Below, piece after piece: positions 31,795 to 56,900 of a stretch of DNA of 64,000 nt (positions are counted from its first letter, which is position 1; the number at the start of each line of letters is the position of its first letter). The stretch lies in the NCBI RefSeq assembly GCF_009914755.1, contig NC_060947.1; one strand, 5' to 3'. The notes under the pieces are model-generated. The model made no database searches. It was not told the origin of the DNA and saw only the letters and a list, made by a program, of their open reading frames with translations. The stretch is from the human T2T-CHM13v2.0 reference genome, Homo sapiens. A program made the position numbers and the translations under genes.

Positions 31795-32218
31795 TGTATA
31801 GTGTGTTTTATGCTGCTGTGTTTTGCTTTATGACAAAACACCTGAGACTGGGTAATTTATAAAGAACAGAAATTTATTTCTCACAGTTATGCTGCTGTGT
31901 TTTGCTTTATGACAAAACACCTGAGACTGAGTAAATTATAAAGAACAGAAATTTATTTCTCACAGTTTTGAAGGCTGAGAAGTCCACAATCAAGGCTCTG
32001 GAATCTTGTGAGGACCTTCTTCTTTGTCCTCACATGACAAGAAGCAGAAAGGGGCAAATCCATTCCAGCAAGCCTTGTTTATACTGGCATCAATTCATTC
32101 ATGAGGGCAGAGTCCTCATGACTGAAATCTCCCATTGGGCCCCACCTCCCAACACTGTTGCATTGAGAATTAACTTTCTAACATATGAATTCTGGGGGAC
32201 ATATTCAGACCACAGCAT
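31795..32218 (-). mobile_element. MST/MLT1A-type MaLR solo LTR with internal 79-bp tandem duplication
   Basis: gactgggtaatttataaagaacagaaatttatttctcacagtt...ggggacatattcagaccacagca. Confidence 0.85.
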
Positions 32219-33264: not shown

Positions 33265-34998
33265 AAAATAACACTTCTTTTCTTTGCTTCCCAGAGACTT
33301 TGGGAGTTGTTCTATTATATTTTGCTCAGACCTTATTGTTGTTACTTCAGGAAGATTGATTTGTTAGAAACGTATTCCTCCATAAATGTATTAGACCATT
33401 CTTGCACTGCTATGAAGAAATACTTGAGACTGAGTAATTTACAAAGAAAAGAGGTTTAATTGGCTCACAGTTCCACAGGGTGTACAGGAAGCATGGCTGA
33501 GGAGGCCTCAGGAAATTTACAATCACGGCAGAAGGTGAAGGGAAAGCAAGTACATTTTATACAGTCAGAGCAGGAGGAAGAGAGATGGGAGGAGGTGCTA
33601 CACACTTTTAAACAACTAGATGTCGTGAGTACTCACTCACTATCATGAGAGCAACATCAAGGGGGAAATGTGCCCCCATGATCCAATCACCTCCCACCAG
33701 GCTTCACCTCCAACATTGAGGATGATAATTTGACAGGAGATTTGGGTGGGGACAGAAATCCAAACCATATTATTCCACCCCAGCCCCTCCCAAATCTCAT
33801 GTCCTTCTCACAGTACAAAATACAATCATGCCTTCACAACAGTCCCTCAAAGTCTTAACTCATTCCAGCATTAACTCAAAAGTCTAAAGTCTCATCTGAG
33901 ACAAGGCTAATCCCTTCCACTTATGAGCCTGCAAAATTAAAAACAAGTTCATTACTTCCAAGATACAATGGAGGTATAGGCATTGGATAAATACACCCAC
34001 CCCAAATGGGAGACATTGGCCAACAGAAAGGAGGTACAGGCCCCATGCAAGTTCAAAACCCAGCAGGGCAGCCATTTAGTTTTAAAGCTCCCAAAATAAT
34101 CTCCTTTGACTCCATATCTCACATCTAGGGCATACTGGTGCAAGGGGTGGGCTCCCAAGGCCTTGAACAGCTCTGCTTCTCTGGCATTATAGGATACAGC
34201 CCCTGTGGCTGCTTTCATAGGCAGCTTTTCCAGGTGCACAGTGCAAGTTGTCAGTAGATCTACCATTCTGGGGTCTGAAGGATGGTGGCCCTCTTCTCAC
34301 AGCTTCACTACGTAGTGCTCCAATGGGGACTCTGTGTGGGGACTCCAACCTTACATTTCCCTTGACACTGCCCTAGTAGAGGTTCTTCATGAGGGACCCA
34401 CCCCTGTAGCAGGCTTTTGCCTGGACATCCAGGGATTTCCAAACATCTTCTGAAATCTAGGTGGGGGCTTCCAAGCCTCAACTTTTACACTGTGTGTGCT
34501 TGAAGGCTTAACACCACATGGAAGCCACCAAGGCTTATGGTTTGCACGCTCTGAAGAATCAGCCTGAACTGTACCTTGGCCCTTTTTAGCCACAACTTGA
34601 GCTGGAACAGGTGGGATGCAGGGCACTGTGTCTCAAGGCTGCACAGAGCAGCAGAGCCCTGGGCCTGGCCAAGGAAAACTTTCTTCCTTCACACGCTTCC
34701 AGGCCTGTGATTGGAGGGGCTGCTGTGCAGAGGTCTCTGAAATGCCTCTGAGGCTTTTTTCCTATTGTCTTGCACTGACTCCTGTCAATTAGCAATTGAC
34801 TCCTCTTAGGCAAATTTTTGCAGTCAGATTGAATTCATCCACTGAAAATGGGTCTTTCTTTTCTACCACATGGCTGAGCTGCAAATTTTCCAAACTTTTA
34901 TGTTTTGCTTCCCTTTGCTCACATATGTGAGAATATGCTGTTAGAAGCAACCAGGCCACATCTTGAATGCTTTGCTGCTTAGAAATTTCTTCCACCAG

Positions 34999-35152
34999 CT
35001 CTCTTGCTCTTCTGCCTAGTGCTATATAAGGATAGAGCTTTTCTCTCCTTCAGAGGATATAGCAAGATGCAATCTTAGAAACAGAAAATGCCCCTCACCA
35101 CATAACTGAGCCTACCAGCACCTTGATTTTGGATCTCCCAGCCTCCAAAACG
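34999..35152 (+). mobile_element. MSTD-like LTR fragment at the 5' end of the inserted unit
   Basis: ctcttgctcttctgcc...cagcaccttgattttggatctcccagcctccaaaac matches the MST LTR 3' half; orientation opposite to the host MSTA. Confidence 0.75.
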
Positions 35153-35168
35153 ATTCAGGGGAGAGGAG

Positions 35169-35179
35169 CCAAGATGGCC
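35169..35179 (-). promoter_or_regulatory. YY1 site of the L1 internal promoter
   Basis: ccaagatggcc at the canonical position of the L1PA 5'UTR. Confidence 0.8.
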
Positions 35180-35347
35180 GAATAGGAACAGCTCTGGACT
35201 ACAGCTCCCAGCATGAGCGATGCAGAAGAGGGGTGATTTCTGCATTTCCAACTGAGGTATCGGGTTCACCTCACTGGGAAGTGCAAGACAGTAGGCGCAG
35301 GACAGTGGGTGCAGCACACCAGGCATGAGCCAAAGCAGGGTGAGGCA

Positions 35348-35611
35348 TCACCTCACCCAGAAAGCACAAGGGGTCAGGGAATTCCCTTTCCTAGTCAAAG
35401 AAAGGGTTGACAGATGGCACCTGGAAAATTGGGTCACTCCCACCCTAATACTGTGCTTTTCCAACGGGCTTAAAAAATGGTGCACCAGGAGATCATATCC
35501 CACACCTGGCTCGGAGGGTCCTACACCCACGGAGTCTCGCTCGTTGCTGGCACAGGAGTCCGAGATCAAACTGCAAGGCAGCAGCGAGGCTAGGGGAGGG
35601 GTGCCTGCCAT
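35348..35611 (-). CDS. L1 antisense ORF0-like open frame (87 aa)
   Basis: MAGTPPLASLLPCSLISDSCASNERDSVGVGPSEPGVGY...IRVGVTQFSR matches primate L1 ORF0p; expression not shown. Confidence 0.55.
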   Translation of the reverse strand: MAGTPPLASLLPCSLISDSCASNERDSVGVGPSEPGVGYDLLVHHFLSPLEKHSIRVGVTQFSRCHLSTLSLTRKGNSLTPCAFWVR

Positions 35612-36192
35612 TGCCGAGTTAGTTGTTTGATTAGGTAAACAAAGCAGCTGGGAAGCTCGAACTAGGTGGAGCCCACCACAGCTCAAGGAGGCCTGCCTGC
35701 CTCTGTAGGCTCCACCTCTGGGGGTAGGGCACAGACAAAAAAAGGACAGCAGTAACCTCTACAGACTTAAATGTCCCTGTCTGACAGCTTTGAAGAGAGT
35801 AGTGGTTCTCCCAGCATGCAGCTTGAGATCTGAGAACGGGCAGACTACCTCCTCAATTGGGTCCCTGACCCCCGAGTAGCCTAACTGGGAGGCAGCCCGC
35901 AGTAGGGGTGGACTGACACCTCACACAGTTGGGTACTCCTCTGAGACAAAACTTCCAGAGGAATGATCAGGCAGCAGCATTTGCGGTTCACCAATACACA
36001 CTGTTCTACAGCCACAGCTGCTGATACCCAGACAAACAGGGTCTGGAGTGGACCTCTAGCAAACTCCAACAGACCTGCAGCTGAGGGTCCTGTCTGTTAG
36101 AAGGAAAACTAACCAACAGAAAGGACATCCACACCAAAAACCCATCTGTACATCACCATCATCAAAGACCAAAGATAGATAAAACCACAAAG

Positions 36193-37210
36193 ATGGGAAA
36201 AAAACAGAGCAGAAAAAACTGGAAACTCTAAAAACCAGAGTGCCTCTCCACCTCAAAAGGAATGCAGCTCCTCACCGGCAATGGAACAAAGCTGGATGGA
36301 GAATGACTTTGAGGAATTGAGAGAAGAAGGCTTCAGAAGATCAAACTACTCTGAGCTACAGGAGGAAATTCAAACCAATGGCAAAGAACTTAAAAGCTTT
36401 GAAAAAAAATTAGACGAATGGATAAGGAGAATAAACAATGCAGAGAAGTCCTTAAAGGACCTGATGGAGCTGAAAACCAAGGCATGAGAGCTACATGAAG
36501 AATGCAGAAGCCTCAGTAGCCGATGCGATCAACTGAAAGAAAGGGTATCAGTGATGGAAGACGAAATGAATGAAATGAAGTGAGAAGAGAAGTTTAGAGA
36601 AAAAAGAATAAAAAGAAACGAACAAAGCCTCCAAGAAATATGGGACTATGTGAAAAGACCAAATCTACATATGATTGGGGTACCTGAAAGTGATGCAGAG
36701 AATGGAACCAAATTGGAAAACACTCTGCAGGATATTATCCAGGAGAACTTCCCCAATCTAGCAAGGCAGGCCAACATTCAGATTCAGGAATTACAGAGAA
36801 CACCACAAAGATAGTCCTTGAGAAAAGCAACTCCAAGACACATAATTGTCAGATTCACCAAAGTTGAAATGAAGGAAAAAATGTTAAGGGCAGCCAGAGA
36901 GAAATGTCGGGTTACCCATAAAGGTAAGCACATCAGACTAACAGCGGATCTCTCAGCAGAAACTCTACAAGCCAGAAGAAAGTGGGGGCCAATATTCAAC
37001 ATTCTTAAGGAAAAGAATTTTCAACCCAGAATTTCATATCCAGCCAAACTAAGCTTCATAAGTGAAGGAGAAATAAAATTCTTTACAGACAAGCAAATGC
37101 TGAGAGTTTTTGTCACCACCAGGCCTCCCCTAAAAGAGCTCCTGAAGGAAGCACTAAACATGGAAAGGAACAACTGGTACCAGCCACTGCAAAAACATGC
37201 CAAATTGTAA
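36193..37210 (+). pseudogene. L1 ORF1p, disrupted
   Basis: ATG GGA AAA AAA CAG; fragments MEQSWMENDF and RHIIVRF...QKHAKL with in-frame stops. Confidence 0.95.
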
Positions 37211-37273
37211 AGACCATCAAGGCTAGGAAGAAACTGCATCAACTAACGAGCAAAATAACCAGCTAACATCATA

Positions 37274-41102
<3,829 letters not shown>

Positions 41103-41343
41103 ACAATGAGAACACATGGACACAGGAAGGGGAACATCACACACCAGGGACTGTTGTGGGGTGGGGGGAGGGGGGAGGGATAGCATTAGGAGATATACCT
41201 AATGCTAAATGACGAGTTAATGGGTGCAGCACACCAACATGGCACATGTATACATATGTAACAAACCTGCACGTTGTGCACATGTACCCTAAAACTTAAA
41301 GTATTATAATAATAAAATAACAAATATATAAAATGAAAAAAAG

Positions 41344-41870
41344 ATTCAGGGGGTACAAGTTCAGGGGGTATATTATGTAATGCTGGGTTTTGGGCTTCTA
41401 GTGAATCCATCATGCAAATATTGAACATAGTACCCACTACATAGTTTTTCAACCCTCATAACCCTTCCAACCTTTTTTTTTTTTTTTTTTTTTGGAATTC
41501 CCTGGGTCTTTTGTTTCCATCTTTCTGTTCATGTGTACCCATTGATTAGCTACCACTTATGAGTGAGAACATGTGGTATTTGATTTCTGTTTCTGAGTTA
41601 TTTCACTTAGGATAATGTTCTCCAGCTGCATCCTTGTTGGTGTGAAGAACAGGATTTCATTTTTTATGGCTCTGTGGTATTCCTAGATGTATATGTCCTA
41701 AATTTTCTTTATCTAATCCACCAGTGATGGACACTTGGGTTGACTCCATGACTTGGTATTGTGAATAGTGCCACGATAAACTTACCAGTGCAAGTGTCTT
41801 TTTGATAAAACAATTTATTTTTCTTTGGATATATACTCAGTAGTGGGATTTTTAGTTCTTTGAGAAATCT
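41344..41870 (-). mobile_element. Older L1PA (L1PA15/16-like) 3' fragment lacking its poly(T) end
   Basis: attcagggggtac...ccacttatgagtgagaacatgtggtatttg...; compare the intact end at 43585-43620. Confidence 0.8.
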
Positions 41871-41907
41871 GAGTACTAATACAGAGGAAATTAAAGTTTC
41901 ACCTAAA

Positions 41908-42208
41908 TTTTTATTTTCGTCTTTTATTTTTTATTTGAGACAGGATCTCTGTCATCCAGACTGGAGTGCAGTAGCATAACCACTTACTACACTCTAGACC
42001 TCCTGGGCTCAAGCAGTCCTCCTACAAGAGCCTTCTGAGTAGCTGAGACTGAAGGCTTGCATCACCACACCAGCTAATTTTTAATTTTTTGTAGAGACGG
42101 GGCCTCCTTATGCTGCCCAGGCTTGTCTGGAGCTCCTGGGCTCAAACAGTTCTCTCATGTTGACCTTCCAAAGTGCTGGAATTACAGGCATGAGCCACTG
42201 TGCCAACT
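41908..42208 (-). mobile_element. AluJ
   Basis: Antisense dimer; degenerate TSD accta(a)attttt. Confidence 0.9.
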
Positions 42209-43582
42209 CGTCGACCTAATTTTTTAAAGCACAGGAATATAATGCTACTTTCATCATTTTCATTCAGTTAGAACAATTATGGTAAACAAGGTCTGAAACT
42301 TAGACATTTCTCAAAAACCTAAACCATTTAAAATGACATTTACATTTCATACTTTTTTCTTTTTCCTAATAGTTTCCTTTCCTTTGTAATATTATAGCTG
42401 AAAAGAATTTAATTGAATAAAATCAGATTCTTCTATAGTCATAAAAGGCATAGTTATGATTTTCCGATTTAAAATTAACAATTTACTTTTGGCAGCAATT
42501 AAATATTGAAGCTTTATTATGTACCAACTAAAAAAAAAAAAAAGAAATTTCTTCCACCAGAAACTCTAAATCTTCACTCTCAAATTCAAAGTTCCACATA
42601 TCCCTAGAGCAGGAACACAATCCAACTAGGCTCTTTCCCAAAGCATAGCAAGAGTGACTGTTACTTCATTTCCCATAAGCTCCCATTTCCATCTGAGATC
42701 TCTTCAGCCTGGACTTAACTGTCAATATCACTGTCAGAATTTTTGTCACAATGATTCAACAAGTCTCTAGAAAGTTCTAAACTTTCTCTCACCTTCATGT
42801 CTTTTTCTGAGCCCTCCAAACTGTTCCAACCTCTGCCCATTACCCAGTTCCAAAGCTGCTTCCACATTTTCAGGTATCTTTATAGCAATGTCCCACTCCT
42901 TGATACCAATTTTCTGTATTAGTTTATTCTTGTACTTCTATAAAGAAATACCTGAGACTGGGTAATTTATAAAGAAAGGAGGTTTAATTGGATCACAGTT
43001 CCACAGGCTGTATGGGAAGTATGGCTGGGGAGGCCTCAGGAAATTTAAAATTATGGTGGAAGGCAAAGGGAAAGCAGGCGCATCTCACATGGCTGGAGCA
43101 GGAGGAAGGAGAGAGGAGGTGCTACACCCTTTTAAACAACTAGTTCCCATGAGTCCTCAATCATTATTATGAGAGCAGCACCGAGAAGGAAATCTGCTCC
43201 TATGATCCAATCACCTCCCACTAGGCCTATCCTCCAACACTGGGGATGATATTTGACATGAGATTTGGTTGGAGACACAGACACAAAACATATCAATACG
43301 GAAAGCAGTACTGAATAATTAGAAATGAATTTTTATAAATGAAGGCTACACTTAAGGTCATGTATTTATTACATGGCACTGCCCTCAAAAACCATTCTTT
43401 TTTCCATGACACAATATTTATTTTTTTCTTTTTTGGGTTCATGATTTTTTCTTATATTATTTTTAGTTTTATTTTATTTTTGATTGACACATAATAATAC
43501 TACCTGCTAATTACACTGATTTGATAATTACACAATGTATACACATACTGAAGCATCAAATTTTACCCCATATTCTTTCTTT

Positions 43583-43793
43583 AATTTTTTTAACTTTCAT
43601 TTTAGGTTCAGGAGTACATGTGCAGGTTTGCTATATAGGTAAGTTGCATGTCACAGGAGTTTGGTATACAGATTATTTTGTCACCCAGGTAATAAGCATA
43701 GTACCTGATAGGTAGTTTTCTTTATCCCCTCCCTTCTCCCATCCTCCACCCTCAAGTAGACCCCAGTGTCTTTGTTCTATTCTTTATGTCCAT
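43583..43793 (-). mobile_element. L1PA 3' end fragment
   Basis: tttttaactttcattttaggttcaggagtacatgtgcaggtttg... Confidence 0.85.
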
Positions 43794-53238: not shown

Positions 53239-53730
53239 GAGAAGAAAGCAGTCAGCAGCAGGAACTAAGGATGAAAGGTCATTGTGTAGACAGATTCAAA
53301 GGGCTATGGCAGGCCAAGTAATCTAGTTAGGAGAGAGTACAAAATATGAGAAAGTAAAAGCTAGTAGTAAAGCAAATGTGTAGATAAAAGGAAAATGGAG
53401 CAGATACTAGGTCATATTCATAGCAGCACACAGCAGATCATATTATCTAGTGCTTCTATAAAGAATGACTAGAGAAGGTAGTTAGAACAAAATCATCTGT
53501 TTGAAAACAACAGAGAACTGCTGAGGCAACAAAAACTAGAGGTGCTAATACTACAGAGGAAAAAGTACTTTGAAGAGGTAAGCAGAATTTGTTATCTGCT
53601 TTTATCTCGAGATAAATTTGTTTTATCCCAAATTTGTTATCCACTTTTATCTTGGGATACATGCCTATTCTGGACATGCACAGAAGAATGGGAATCCAGG
53701 ATTTTCATAGTAGGGAGTTTCTTCTAGACG

Positions 53731-53992
53731 TGATATGGTTTGGATATTTGTCCCCTTCAGATCATGTTGAAATGTGACTCACAGTGTTGGAGGTGAGGTC
53801 TGGTGGAAGGTGTTTGGGTTATGGGGGTGGATCGCTCATAAATGGCTTCATGCCCTACCCAGAGTAACGAGTGCTAATGAGTTCGTGCAAGAGCTGTTGT
53901 TTTAAAATTATGGCACCTCCCTCCTCTCTCTCTTGTTCCCACTCTCACCATGTGACACGCCAGCTTCCTGTACAGCTTTCAAAACTGTGAGT
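53731..53992 (+). mobile_element. MST LTR, interrupted at its 3' end by L1
   Basis: tgatatggtttggatatttgtcccc...gcttcctgtacagctttcaaaactgtgagt. Confidence 0.85.
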
Positions 53993-56900
53993 GATGCAGA
54001 GGCAGAGCAAGATGGCATAATATAAGGCTTCACCTCTTGTCACCCCCCACCCTGTAAGGACACCAGTTTAACAATGATCTACACACACACACACACAAAA
54101 ACACCTTCATCAGAACCAAAAGTCAGGAGGGCACTCACAGTACCTGGATTTAACTTCACATCACTGAAAGAGGCACTGAAGAGGTAGAAAAAAGAGTTTT
54201 AAATTCCTAGTTCTATGCCTCCCCCACCCCCTAGTAGTGACGGCATGGTGCAGAGTATCTCACTGTGCTGAGGGAGGGACAGTGCAGTAATTGTGAGCAT
54301 TGAATTCAGTGCTGTCTTGTTAGAACAGAAAGGAAAACCAGACCAAACTCAGCTGATGCCTGCCCACAAAAGAAGCATTTAAGTCAGCCCTAGCCAGAGA
54401 AAAATTGCCGATTCCGACAGTCCAATATTGACTTTCACAAGCATCACACTGTGGGCTAATGAGCTCTGGGGCTCCAAATAAACACAAAAGGCAGTCTAGG
54501 CCATAAGGACTACAACCCCTTGGTAAGTCCTAGTGCCAAACTGGGCCCAGAGACAGTGGAATGAGGGGCACAGAGCCTATTGAGAGACAAGTTGGGGCTG
54601 CTAAGACAGTGATGGCATCACCCTTCCCTAACTCCAGGCTGCATAGCTTGCAGCTCTAAAGGAGACCCTTCCTTCTGCCTGAGGAAAGGAGAGGGTAGAG
54701 TGGGGAGGACTTTGTCTTACCTCTTGGATGCCAGCTCAGCCACAGCAGGATGGGACACCAGTTAAATCCTTGAGCCCCTGTTCCAAGCCCTAGTTCCTGG
54801 ACAATAATACTAGACACACACTGGGACAGAAGGGAAACCACTGCCTTAAAGGGAAAGAATCTGTCCTGGCAGCATTCATCACTGCAAACTGAAGAGCTCT
54901 TGGGCCCTGAATAATGAGCAGCCATATCCAGGTATTACATCAAGGGCTTTGGGTGAGAGCCTGAGGCTTCTGGCTTAAGGCGAGACTCAGCACATTCATG
55001 TAAGTGCTGGCTATGGGATGAGACTCCTTCTGCTTGCAAAAAGCAGAGGAAAAAGTAAAAGAGACTTTCTATTGCACCTCAGGTAACAGCTCAGCCATAG
55101 GGTGGTAGAGCACCAAGAGGGCTCTTGGGATCCCTGATTCCACGATTTGGTTCTTGGATGGTATTCTGGACCTACTCTGGGCCAGAGGGGAATCTATCAT
55201 CCTGAAATGGGAGTCCCAGGCAAGGCATCATTCACCACAAGCTGATGGAAGAGCCCTTGGAAGTATTCCTTATTGGCCTGTGGTGGTGGTTCTGCCTTCA
55301 GAAAGGGGAGAAAAGAGTAGGAAGGACCGCATCTAGTGCTTTAGTGTCAGCTCAGCCATAGTACACCAGGTATACTTCTATAATTTTTGAATCTAGTCCC
55401 TGGCTTGCAGACGTCACCAATGGACCCACCTAAGGACTTGGGGAACTCACCAGTCTAAAGGGAAGGACACAGGCCTGGCCAGCCTTGGAGCCTTGGAACC
55501 TGCTGGTTGTAGAGCCCCAGGACCTTGAGAAAACATAGGTGGTAACCAGGGAGTATTTACAGCAGACCTTTGGCAAGACTTGGTGCTGTGCTGGCTTCAG
55601 GTCTGAACCAGTGCAGTCTTAGTGGTGATGGCCACAGGTGTGCTTGTTTCACTCCACCCACAGGTTTAGGTGGCTCAGAACAAGGAGAGAGATGACAACT
55701 GGAAGAAAGCAAGGGAAGAGAATAAGAGTCTCGGCCTGGTAATCCAGAGACTTCTCCTGAATCCTGTCCAAGACAATCAAGAGAGTACCGCTAAGGGTCT
55801 GCAAGAACCACTGTGTTACTGGGCTGAGGGTGCCTTCTAAAGCAGATACCGTTTAGATTACAGCACCCAAGTCCTTTTGAATATCTGGAAAGCTTTCGCA
55901 AGTAGGATGAGTATAAACAAGCCAAGACAGTGAAAACAACAGTAAATACCTAACTCTTCAATTCCCAGACACTGAAGAACATCTACTAGTAGCAACACCA
56001 TCCAGGAAAACATGGCTTCACCAAATGAACTGAATAAGGTGCCACAAATGAATCCTGGGAAATAGAGATAACTGACCTTTCAGATAGAATTCATAATAGC
56101 TGTTTTGAGGAAATTCCAAGAAATTAAACATAACACAGAGAAGAAATTTAGAATTCTGTGTGATAAATTTAACAAAGAGACTGAAATAATTAAAAAGAAC
56201 CAAGCAGAAACTCTGGAGCTGAAAAACTGAATAGGCTTACTGAAAAATGCGTCACAGTCTCTTAATGGCAGGATGGATTAAGCAGAAGAAAAAATTAGTG
56301 AGCTTGAAGACAGGGCTATTTGAAAATGCACAGTCAGAGGAGACAAGAGGAAAAAAAGAATACCAAACAATGAGGCACACTAACAGGATCTAGAAAATAG
56401 CCTCAAAAGGGCAAATCTAAGAGTTATTGGCCTTATAAAGGAGGCAGAGAAAGAGATAGGGTTAGAAAGTTTATTCAAAGGGATAATAACAGAGAACTTC
56501 TCAAACCTAGGAAAAAATATATCAATATGCAATTACAAGACAGATATAGAACACCAAGCAGATTTAACCCAAAGAAGACTACCTCAAGGCCTTTAATAAT
56601 AAAACTTCCAAAGATCAAGGATAAAGAAAGGATACTAAAAGTAGCAGGACAAAAGAAACAAATAACATACAATAGAGCTCCAATATTTCTGGCAGAAGAC
56701 TTTTCAGTGGAAACCTAACAGGCCAGAATAGAGTGGCATGACATATTTAAAGTACTGAAGGAAGAAAACTTTCTCCCTAGAATAGAATATCTGGCAAAAA
56801 TATCCTTCAAACATGAAGGAGAAATAAAGACTTTTCCAGCCAAACAAAAGCTAAGGGATTTCACCAATATCAGACTGTCCTACAAGAAATGCTAAAGGGA

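What the first reader, a model, noticed from the sequence alone, without database searches (positions are those of the whole stretch)
34999..35165. 5' end of the unit looks like a spliced exon-exon junction from an LTR promoter
Seen: the LTR piece ends at cccagcctccaaaac(g), where MST LTRs normally continue with a splice donor; the MST LTR at 53981-53992 reads aaaact|GTGAGT. The next bases, attcaggg..., are where an antisense L1PA 3' end follows its T-tract and AG; 43594-43615 reads tttcattttAG|gttcaggagtac. Both the GTGAG donor and the T-tract are missing here. Known: MaLR LTRs act as germline/early-embryo promoters and use this donor. Inference: the RNA started in an MST LTR and was spliced to an acceptor donated by an old L1 tail, so the L1 may have been expressed from a borrowed LTR promoter.
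Basis: partly seen in the sequence, partly recalled or inferred. Interest (0 to 1): 0.75.

Follow-up and report, generated by a model that had tools for sequence, protein, structure and literature searches.

The report
L1 jumped using borrowed LTR promoter
A 7.5-kb insertion on the human X chromosome joins two pieces that lie 11.6 kb apart on chromosome 13 exactly at splice signals, with a jumping gene (L1) at the joint; the L1 likely once sat at that spot on chromosome 13, was likely copied from an RNA started by a retrovirus-derived promoter, and is absent there today, which would be a rare but already known route.

Summary
The splice junction is real. Window 34999-35152 and 41341-42530 each map to one locus on contig C13 (read as chr13), same strand, separated by an 11,615-nt GT..AG intron. 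The 5' end lies 26 nt after a TATA-like box in a MaLR LTR, the 3' end 33 nt after ATTAAA; an A-tail and an 18-bp target-site duplication close the unit. It shows an empty site, T-tract/AAGATTCAGG, which is at once the splice acceptor and a normal L1 cutting site. On X the L1's right duplication copy is whole and its left copy is cut at the AG. Best reading (0.85): an L1PA4-like element inserted into this acceptor on a since-lost allele and moved as one LTR-started, spliced RNA with 5' and 3' transductions. Rival (0.10): a lncRNA retrocopy hit later by an L1 at the junction. The mechanism is published (LTR7Y, RAP1GDS1, 8q21.11); this locus was not found in print. Its value: it likely maps a vanished source L1 to the base, favouring lost alleles over trans-splicing for such orphans.

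The parts
34981..34998 (+). Outer target-site duplication, left copy (18 bp); cut site TT/AGAA
   Evidence: exact copy at 42543-42560
34999..35152 (+). Exon 1: 154 nt of a MaLR (MST-type, label recalled) LTR, from the predicted transcription start to the splice donor; 5' transduction
   Evidence: C13:69617275-69617428, TATA-like box 26 nt upstream, GTGAGA follows at the source
35153..35161 (+). First 9 nt of exon 2 = left copy of the inner duplication, cut at the acceptor AG
   Evidence: GATTCAGGGG at 35152-35161 and 41343-41352; source reads T-tract AAG|ATTCAGG
35162..41340 (+). Full-length L1PA (L1PA4-like by eye), sense to the exons; both ORFs now broken; AATAAA 41311-41316 and a decayed A-rich tail
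41341..41352 (+). Right copy of the inner duplication, AAGATTCAGGGG if the source site TT/AAGA was the target (AA cannot be told from the tail)
41344..42530 (+). Exon 2 of the source unit = 3' transduction (1.19 kb): antisense old L1 3' end (about 41344-41870), antisense Alu piece (about 41905-42210), unique tail with ATTAAA at 42498-42503
42531..42542 (+). Poly(A) tail of the whole unit, absent at the source
42543..42560 (+). Outer target-site duplication, right copy
33387..43254 (-). Recipient: older two-LTR MaLR element whose internal stretch was interrupted by the unit (context, not part of the unit)
   Evidence: LTR pieces 33387-33730 and 42915-43254, 82-83% alike

Best explanation
The unit is an L1-made copy of a spliced RNA from a two-exon LTR-started locus on chromosome 13, and the full-length L1 at its junction likely travelled with that RNA from a chr13 allele that no longer exists. 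Steps: (1) shown: LTR exon, GT donor, 11.6-kb intron, AG acceptor, exon 2 and poly(A) signal on C13; (2) inferred: an L1PA4-like element inserted in sense at TT/AAGA, the acceptor itself, duplicating AAGATTCAGGGG; (3) inferred: RNA began at the LTR, spliced to the AG inside the left duplication copy, read through the L1's own poly(A) signal and ended at exon 2's signal; (4) shown: the product was inserted by target-primed reverse transcription on X (18-bp duplication, tail, TT/AGAA); inferred: in the germ line or early embryo, probably by the L1's own proteins; (5) inferred: the L1-bearing chr13 allele was lost, most simply by drift while still polymorphic.
For: Splice geometry exact at both ends. 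The duplicated stretch begins at the splice junction; the left copy lacks just what splicing removes and the right copy matches the unspliced source from AAG on, with no extra mutation needed. TT/AAGA exists only in the unspliced source and scores with the best sites: 7 of 1346 positions in the unit score as well, against 24 for CC/AAAA and 692-967 for a cut just before GATT (crude mismatch score). In 12 of 16 sibling L1s with a readable duplication all begin with an A/G-rich run, 3 with exactly AAGA, none with GATT and none after CC; none of 17 cleavage sites in Table S5 of PMC13174262 has CC. Ages agree: transduced pieces differ from C13 at 47 of 1308 non-CpG sites (3.6%), sibling L1s from each other by 3.5%. 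The L1 is not younger than the flank's time on X: composition-adjusted branch 2.6% (2.0-3.4) against 1.4% (0.8-2.3), P(younger) 0.016. Precedents: acceptor 15 bp upstream of a source L1PA2 in RAP1GDS1; LTR7Y-started spliced 5' plus 3' transduction.
Against: The source L1 is absent from this genome, so step 2 is not seen. No sister insertion with either flank was found (only 40 of 1890 and 40 of 8915 candidates scored in 13 and 35). A 15-nt duplication starting at CC/AAAA with one change fits a later nested insertion, and 4 of the 12 sibling duplications differ next to the tail, so that change is not rare. The age test rests on 28 polarised of 53 substitutions, and the L1's private count may include source-lineage changes. 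The L1's excess divergence (59 of 2126 against a sibling mean of 1.7%) is more than a short-lived allele needs and is unexplained apart from selection of siblings by similarity. No other primate genome and no RNA data were available.
Confidence: 0.85

Rival explanations
1. Two events: the spliced 1.35-kb LTR-lncRNA was retrocopied in trans to X; later an unrelated full-length L1 inserted at CC/AAAA five bases before the exon junction, and one base of the right duplication copy changed. The L1 then never used the LTR promoter.
For: Source has no L1. A 15-nt duplication is the usual length among siblings, and tail-adjacent changes occur in 4 of 12. X is rich in L1 (general knowledge).
Against: Needs the L1 to hit the junction (24 of 1346 positions score as well), at a CC site seen in 0 of 12 siblings and 0 of 17 published rows, plus the one change that recreates the source's AAG. 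The L1 looks no younger than the retrocopy.
Confidence: 0.1
2. One event with two template switches: reverse transcriptase began on the lncRNA tail, jumped near the junction to an L1 RNA, then back to the lncRNA through the shared G-run, re-copying about 10 nt.
For: The G-run at exon 2 +6 to +9 resembles the L1's first bases (alignment); explains equal ages and the absent source; template switching is a recognised route to L1 chimeras (PMC13174262).
Against: Needs two switches, the first exactly at the exon junction; a 10-nt duplication at a normal cutting site of the unspliced source is more simply a target-site duplication. Trans-splicing alone cannot put exon 2 behind the L1 tail.
Confidence: 0.04

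Closest known systems
Ref_Chr1_p31.1a, L1 transduction family (Salvador-Palomeque 2019, PMC6425141; passages read)
   Same: [quoted passage not shown]
   Different: There a HERV-H LTR7Y about 126 kb upstream, two exons, a living human-specific donor; here a MaLR LTR 11.6 kb upstream, one exon, an ape-age element and no donor left
RAP1GDS1/L1PA2 and the 17 mRNA/lncRNA-L1 5' transductions (Law and Burns 2026, PMC13174262; parts 1, 3, 4, 5 of 11, passages and Table S5 read)
   Same: First exon ending at a donor, joined to a near full-length L1 via an acceptor a few bases upstream; source L1 missing at 15 of the gene loci
   Different: Their partners are annotated genes; this locus is not among the 17 rows. 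Here the 3' flank and inner duplication point to the exact empty site, and the L1 promoter is complete
8q21.11 source L1 (Schloissnig 2025, PMC12350158; passages)
   Same: First exon of a lncRNA spliced to a full-length L1, giving 5' transductions
   Different: Polymorphic modern progeny, 22 events, source present; here one fixed-age progeny found
MaLR LTR-initiated transcripts (Franke 2017, PMC5538554; passages)
   Same: LTR supplies promoter, start site and splice donor as a whole first exon
   Different: Expression of this locus is untested; the fossil copy is the only evidence of the RNA

Membership tests
Spliced L1 5' transduction (external promoter) | One target-site duplication, L1 cutting motif and poly(A) tail around the whole chimera | tested here: met
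   18 bp exact, TT/AGAA, 12-A tail
Spliced L1 5' transduction (external promoter) | 5' piece maps in sense to a first exon and ends at a splice donor | tested here: met
   C13 exon from TATA+26 to G|GTGAGA
Spliced L1 5' transduction (external promoter) | Acceptor next to a near full-length L1 | tested here: met
   9 nt of exon 2 precede a full-length L1 on X
Spliced L1 5' transduction (external promoter) | Source L1 present at the parent locus (absent in 15 published loci too) | tested here: not met
   No such L1 in C13:69607001-69643000; lowers 'proven member', not 'works like'
Spliced L1 5' transduction (external promoter) | L1 and 5' piece arrive at the same time across species | not testable with these tools
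   No primate genomes; within-genome divergence agrees
L1 3' transduction | Flank behind the L1 tail maps to one parent locus and ends at a second poly(A) signal and tail | tested here: met
L1 3' transduction | Flank begins at the L1's own target-site copy at the parent | tested here: inconclusive
   Match begins at AAG of a TT/AAGA site but AA is also tail and the parent site is empty
Processed lncRNA retrocopy with later nested L1 | Intron lost, tail, duplication | tested here: met
Processed lncRNA retrocopy with later nested L1 | Inner L1 younger than the copy, with its own intact duplication at a normal site | tested here: not met
   L1 not younger; 10 exact bp at an abnormal site or 15 bp with a change at CC/AAAA
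MaLR LTR-initiated transcript | Start after TATA box and donor at the family's conserved position | tested here: met
   TATA at -26; GT at the homologous place in 3 of 6 paralogs
MaLR LTR-initiated transcript | Subfamily (MST-type) by repeat library; expression in oocyte or embryo | not testable with these tools
   Label recalled; no Dfam/RepeatMasker, no RNA data
L1PA4 subfamily | Diagnostic bases against subfamily models | tested here: inconclusive
   By-eye likeness to the FHIT row, called L1PA4 in PMC13174262; sits in a 100/99 clade of 17 of 30 rows; no library run

The most novel reading that the evidence does not exclude
The X insertion is a fossil of a MaLR LTR driving an L1 in the ape germ line from an allele that stayed on chr13 for millions of years (the L1 carries about twice the changes that its flank gained on X) and was then removed cleanly, leaving a still-intact LTR-lncRNA unit; such doubly flanked orphans would show that 'sourceless' exon-L1 chimeras come from lost cis alleles, not trans-splicing, and that MaLR promoters were a route by which L1 escaped its own silencing.
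Probability: 0.12. Interest if true: 0.7.

Novelty: new member of a known kind. Interest (0 to 1): 0.45.

Why it matters
Law and Burns (PMC13174262) found no intronic L1 at 15 gene loci behind exon-L1 chimeras and leaned to trans-splicing, naming a lost allele as the alternative. Here both flanks come from one locus and an inner duplication marks an empty L1 cutting site at the acceptor, which is what the lost-allele model predicts and trans-splicing does not. It gives one base-exact place to look in ape and monkey genomes, suggests a search rule (5' exon plus 3' flank from the same L1-less locus, including repeat-derived first exons), and is fossil evidence that this unannotated-in-my-tools LTR unit was transcribed and spliced in the germ line or early embryo. 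No present function is implied: the L1's ORFs are broken.

Tried and rejected
Segmental duplication: rejected, identity to C13 stops at the unit's ends and tail and duplication are added. Source L1 hidden in the intron: only an inverted, truncated 3' piece at 89-92%. Sister copies with or without the L1: none (scored candidates are a subset). Trans-splicing alone: cannot give exon 2 behind the tail. APOBEC editing as cause of the L1's excess: G>A 15 against C>T 4 (siblings 105/103, Fisher 0.028) but no GA or GG context bias, left unexplained. Purifying selection on the excess: 11 synonymous of 27 against 78 of 268, p 0.27 (one search covered only 48 codons), uninformative. Full-length sibling comparison was not done; dating uses the first 2.4 kb. 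Two of 30 tree rows plus one (L045, L048, L050) have long branches and the 13 rows outside the 17-row clade were left out of the branch counts. Literature: nine searches showed no paper on this locus; the transduction tables of the CHM13 repeat preprint (10.1101/2021.07.12.451456, passages only, 183 high-confidence L1 3' events) and of PMC9311842 (passages only) could not be seen and might list its 3' flank.

Full report
Observation. An exact 18-bp direct repeat at 34981-34998 and 42543-42560, the second behind an A-run, bounds a 7.5-kb unit inside an older two-LTR MaLR element on the minus strand. Inside lie 154 nt of LTR-like DNA, a full-length L1 with broken ORFs and 1.19 kb of other DNA. 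A second repeat, GATTCAGGGG, flanks the L1 at 35152-35161 and 41343-41352.

Source. Both non-L1 pieces map to contig C13 of the window's genome (read as chr13, since the window's chrX is C23): 98% for the first, 94.5-97% for the second; the next matches of the first are paralogs at 76%. There exon 1 ends in G followed by GTGAGA, and exon 2 follows a T-tract and AAG; the gap is 11,615 nt, GT to AG, same strand. The unit's 5' end is 26 nt after a TATA-like box in the LTR and its 3' end 33 nt after ATTAAA, so the copy looks like a complete LTR-started, spliced, polyadenylated RNA. Three of 6 LTR paralogs have GT at the same place; MaLR LTRs are known to carry promoter, start and donor (PMC5538554, passages). 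The junction is unique in the genome.

The complication. In 36 kb around the source there is no full-length L1; the acceptor is an empty site. So whether the L1 used the LTR depends on where it first landed.

Test 1, the target site. The unspliced source reads TT/AAGA at the acceptor, a normal L1 cutting site for a sense insertion. If the L1 landed there, its duplication was about AAGATTCAGGGG, splicing at the AG would leave ATTCAGGGG in front of the L1, and the right copy would stay whole. That is the window, with no extra change. If instead the L1 landed later in the spliced copy on X, it cut either before GATT (692-967 of 1346 positions score as well) or at CC/AAAA (24 of 1346) with one later change; 7 positions score as well as TT/AAGA (crude score). 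Of 16 sibling L1s, 12 gave a readable duplication (8-18 bp); all begin A/G-rich, none with GATT or after CC; but 4 of the 12 differ between copies next to the tail, which keeps the rival alive. None of 17 published cleavage sites has CC.

Test 2, age. Transduced DNA differs from C13 at 47 of 1308 non-CpG sites, 3.6%; 16 siblings in the L1's clade (17 of 30 rows, support 100/99) differ from each other by 3.5%. Using paralogous repeats as outgroup, 11 substitutions arose on X, 17 on C13, 25 of 53 could not be placed. The flank's X branch is then 1.4% (0.8-2.3), the L1's own branch 2.6% (2.0-3.4) after adjusting for base content; the chance that the L1 is the younger is 0.016. Caveats: siblings were the best matches among 40 scored of 7914 candidates, only 2.4 kb of L1 was used, and source-lineage changes inflate the L1's branch. 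The excess (also lowest CpG retention, 20 of 68; G>A bias) is unexplained. An age near 15-20 million years is my estimate from recalled rates, not a tool result.

Mechanism. Most likely (0.85) one RNA: LTR start, splice into the L1's own left duplication copy, full L1, read-through to the host poly(A) signal, then insertion on X; the L1-bearing chr13 allele was later lost. Rivals: retrocopy with a later nested L1 (0.10), double template switch (0.04). No sister copies were found.

Known kinds. An LTR-started, spliced 5' plus 3' transduction is published (PMC6425141, passages); so are an acceptor 15 bp upstream of a source L1PA2 and chimeras whose source is missing (PMC13174262) and the 8q21.11 source (PMC12350158, passages). 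This locus is not among the 17 rows of Table S5 (cells cut at 400 characters). Nine searches found no paper on it; tables of the CHM13 repeat preprint (passages) and PMC9311842 (passages) were not seen and could list the 3' flank. It works like a spliced 5' transduction; full membership is unproven because the source L1 is absent and cross-species timing could not be tested.

Verdict. Real, new member of a known kind, interest 0.45. What lifts it is that it likely pins a vanished source L1 to one base and so speaks to lost allele versus trans-splicing; primate orthologs would settle it.

Noticed in passing
window 53730-54200: A MaLR LTR stops a few bases after its GTGAGT donor and is followed directly by what looks like the 5' end of an old L1 (recalled likeness): an L1 start right behind an LTR promoter, without a splice.
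   Followed up: no
window 35170-37600: The L1 has more private changes than all 16 siblings (59 of 2126), the lowest CpG retention (20 of 68) and a G>A over C>T excess (15 to 4) without APOBEC-type context.
   Followed up: partly
L012 6934-7916 (C13:69621934-69622916): An inverted, 5'-truncated L1PA 3' piece (twin-priming shape) inside the source intron, 89-92% like the window L1; not the source.
   Followed up: partly
L012 2421-2436: The source donor has G at -1 where 6 of 6 paralogs have T, a closer fit to the splice consensus that may be why this LTR copy was spliced.
   Followed up: partly
window about 31809-31967: A tandem duplication of about 79 nt inside a minus-strand MaLR LTR.
   Followed up: no
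window 33387-43254: The recipient MaLR element keeps both LTRs, 82-83% alike, so it is far older than the insertion.
   Followed up: partly
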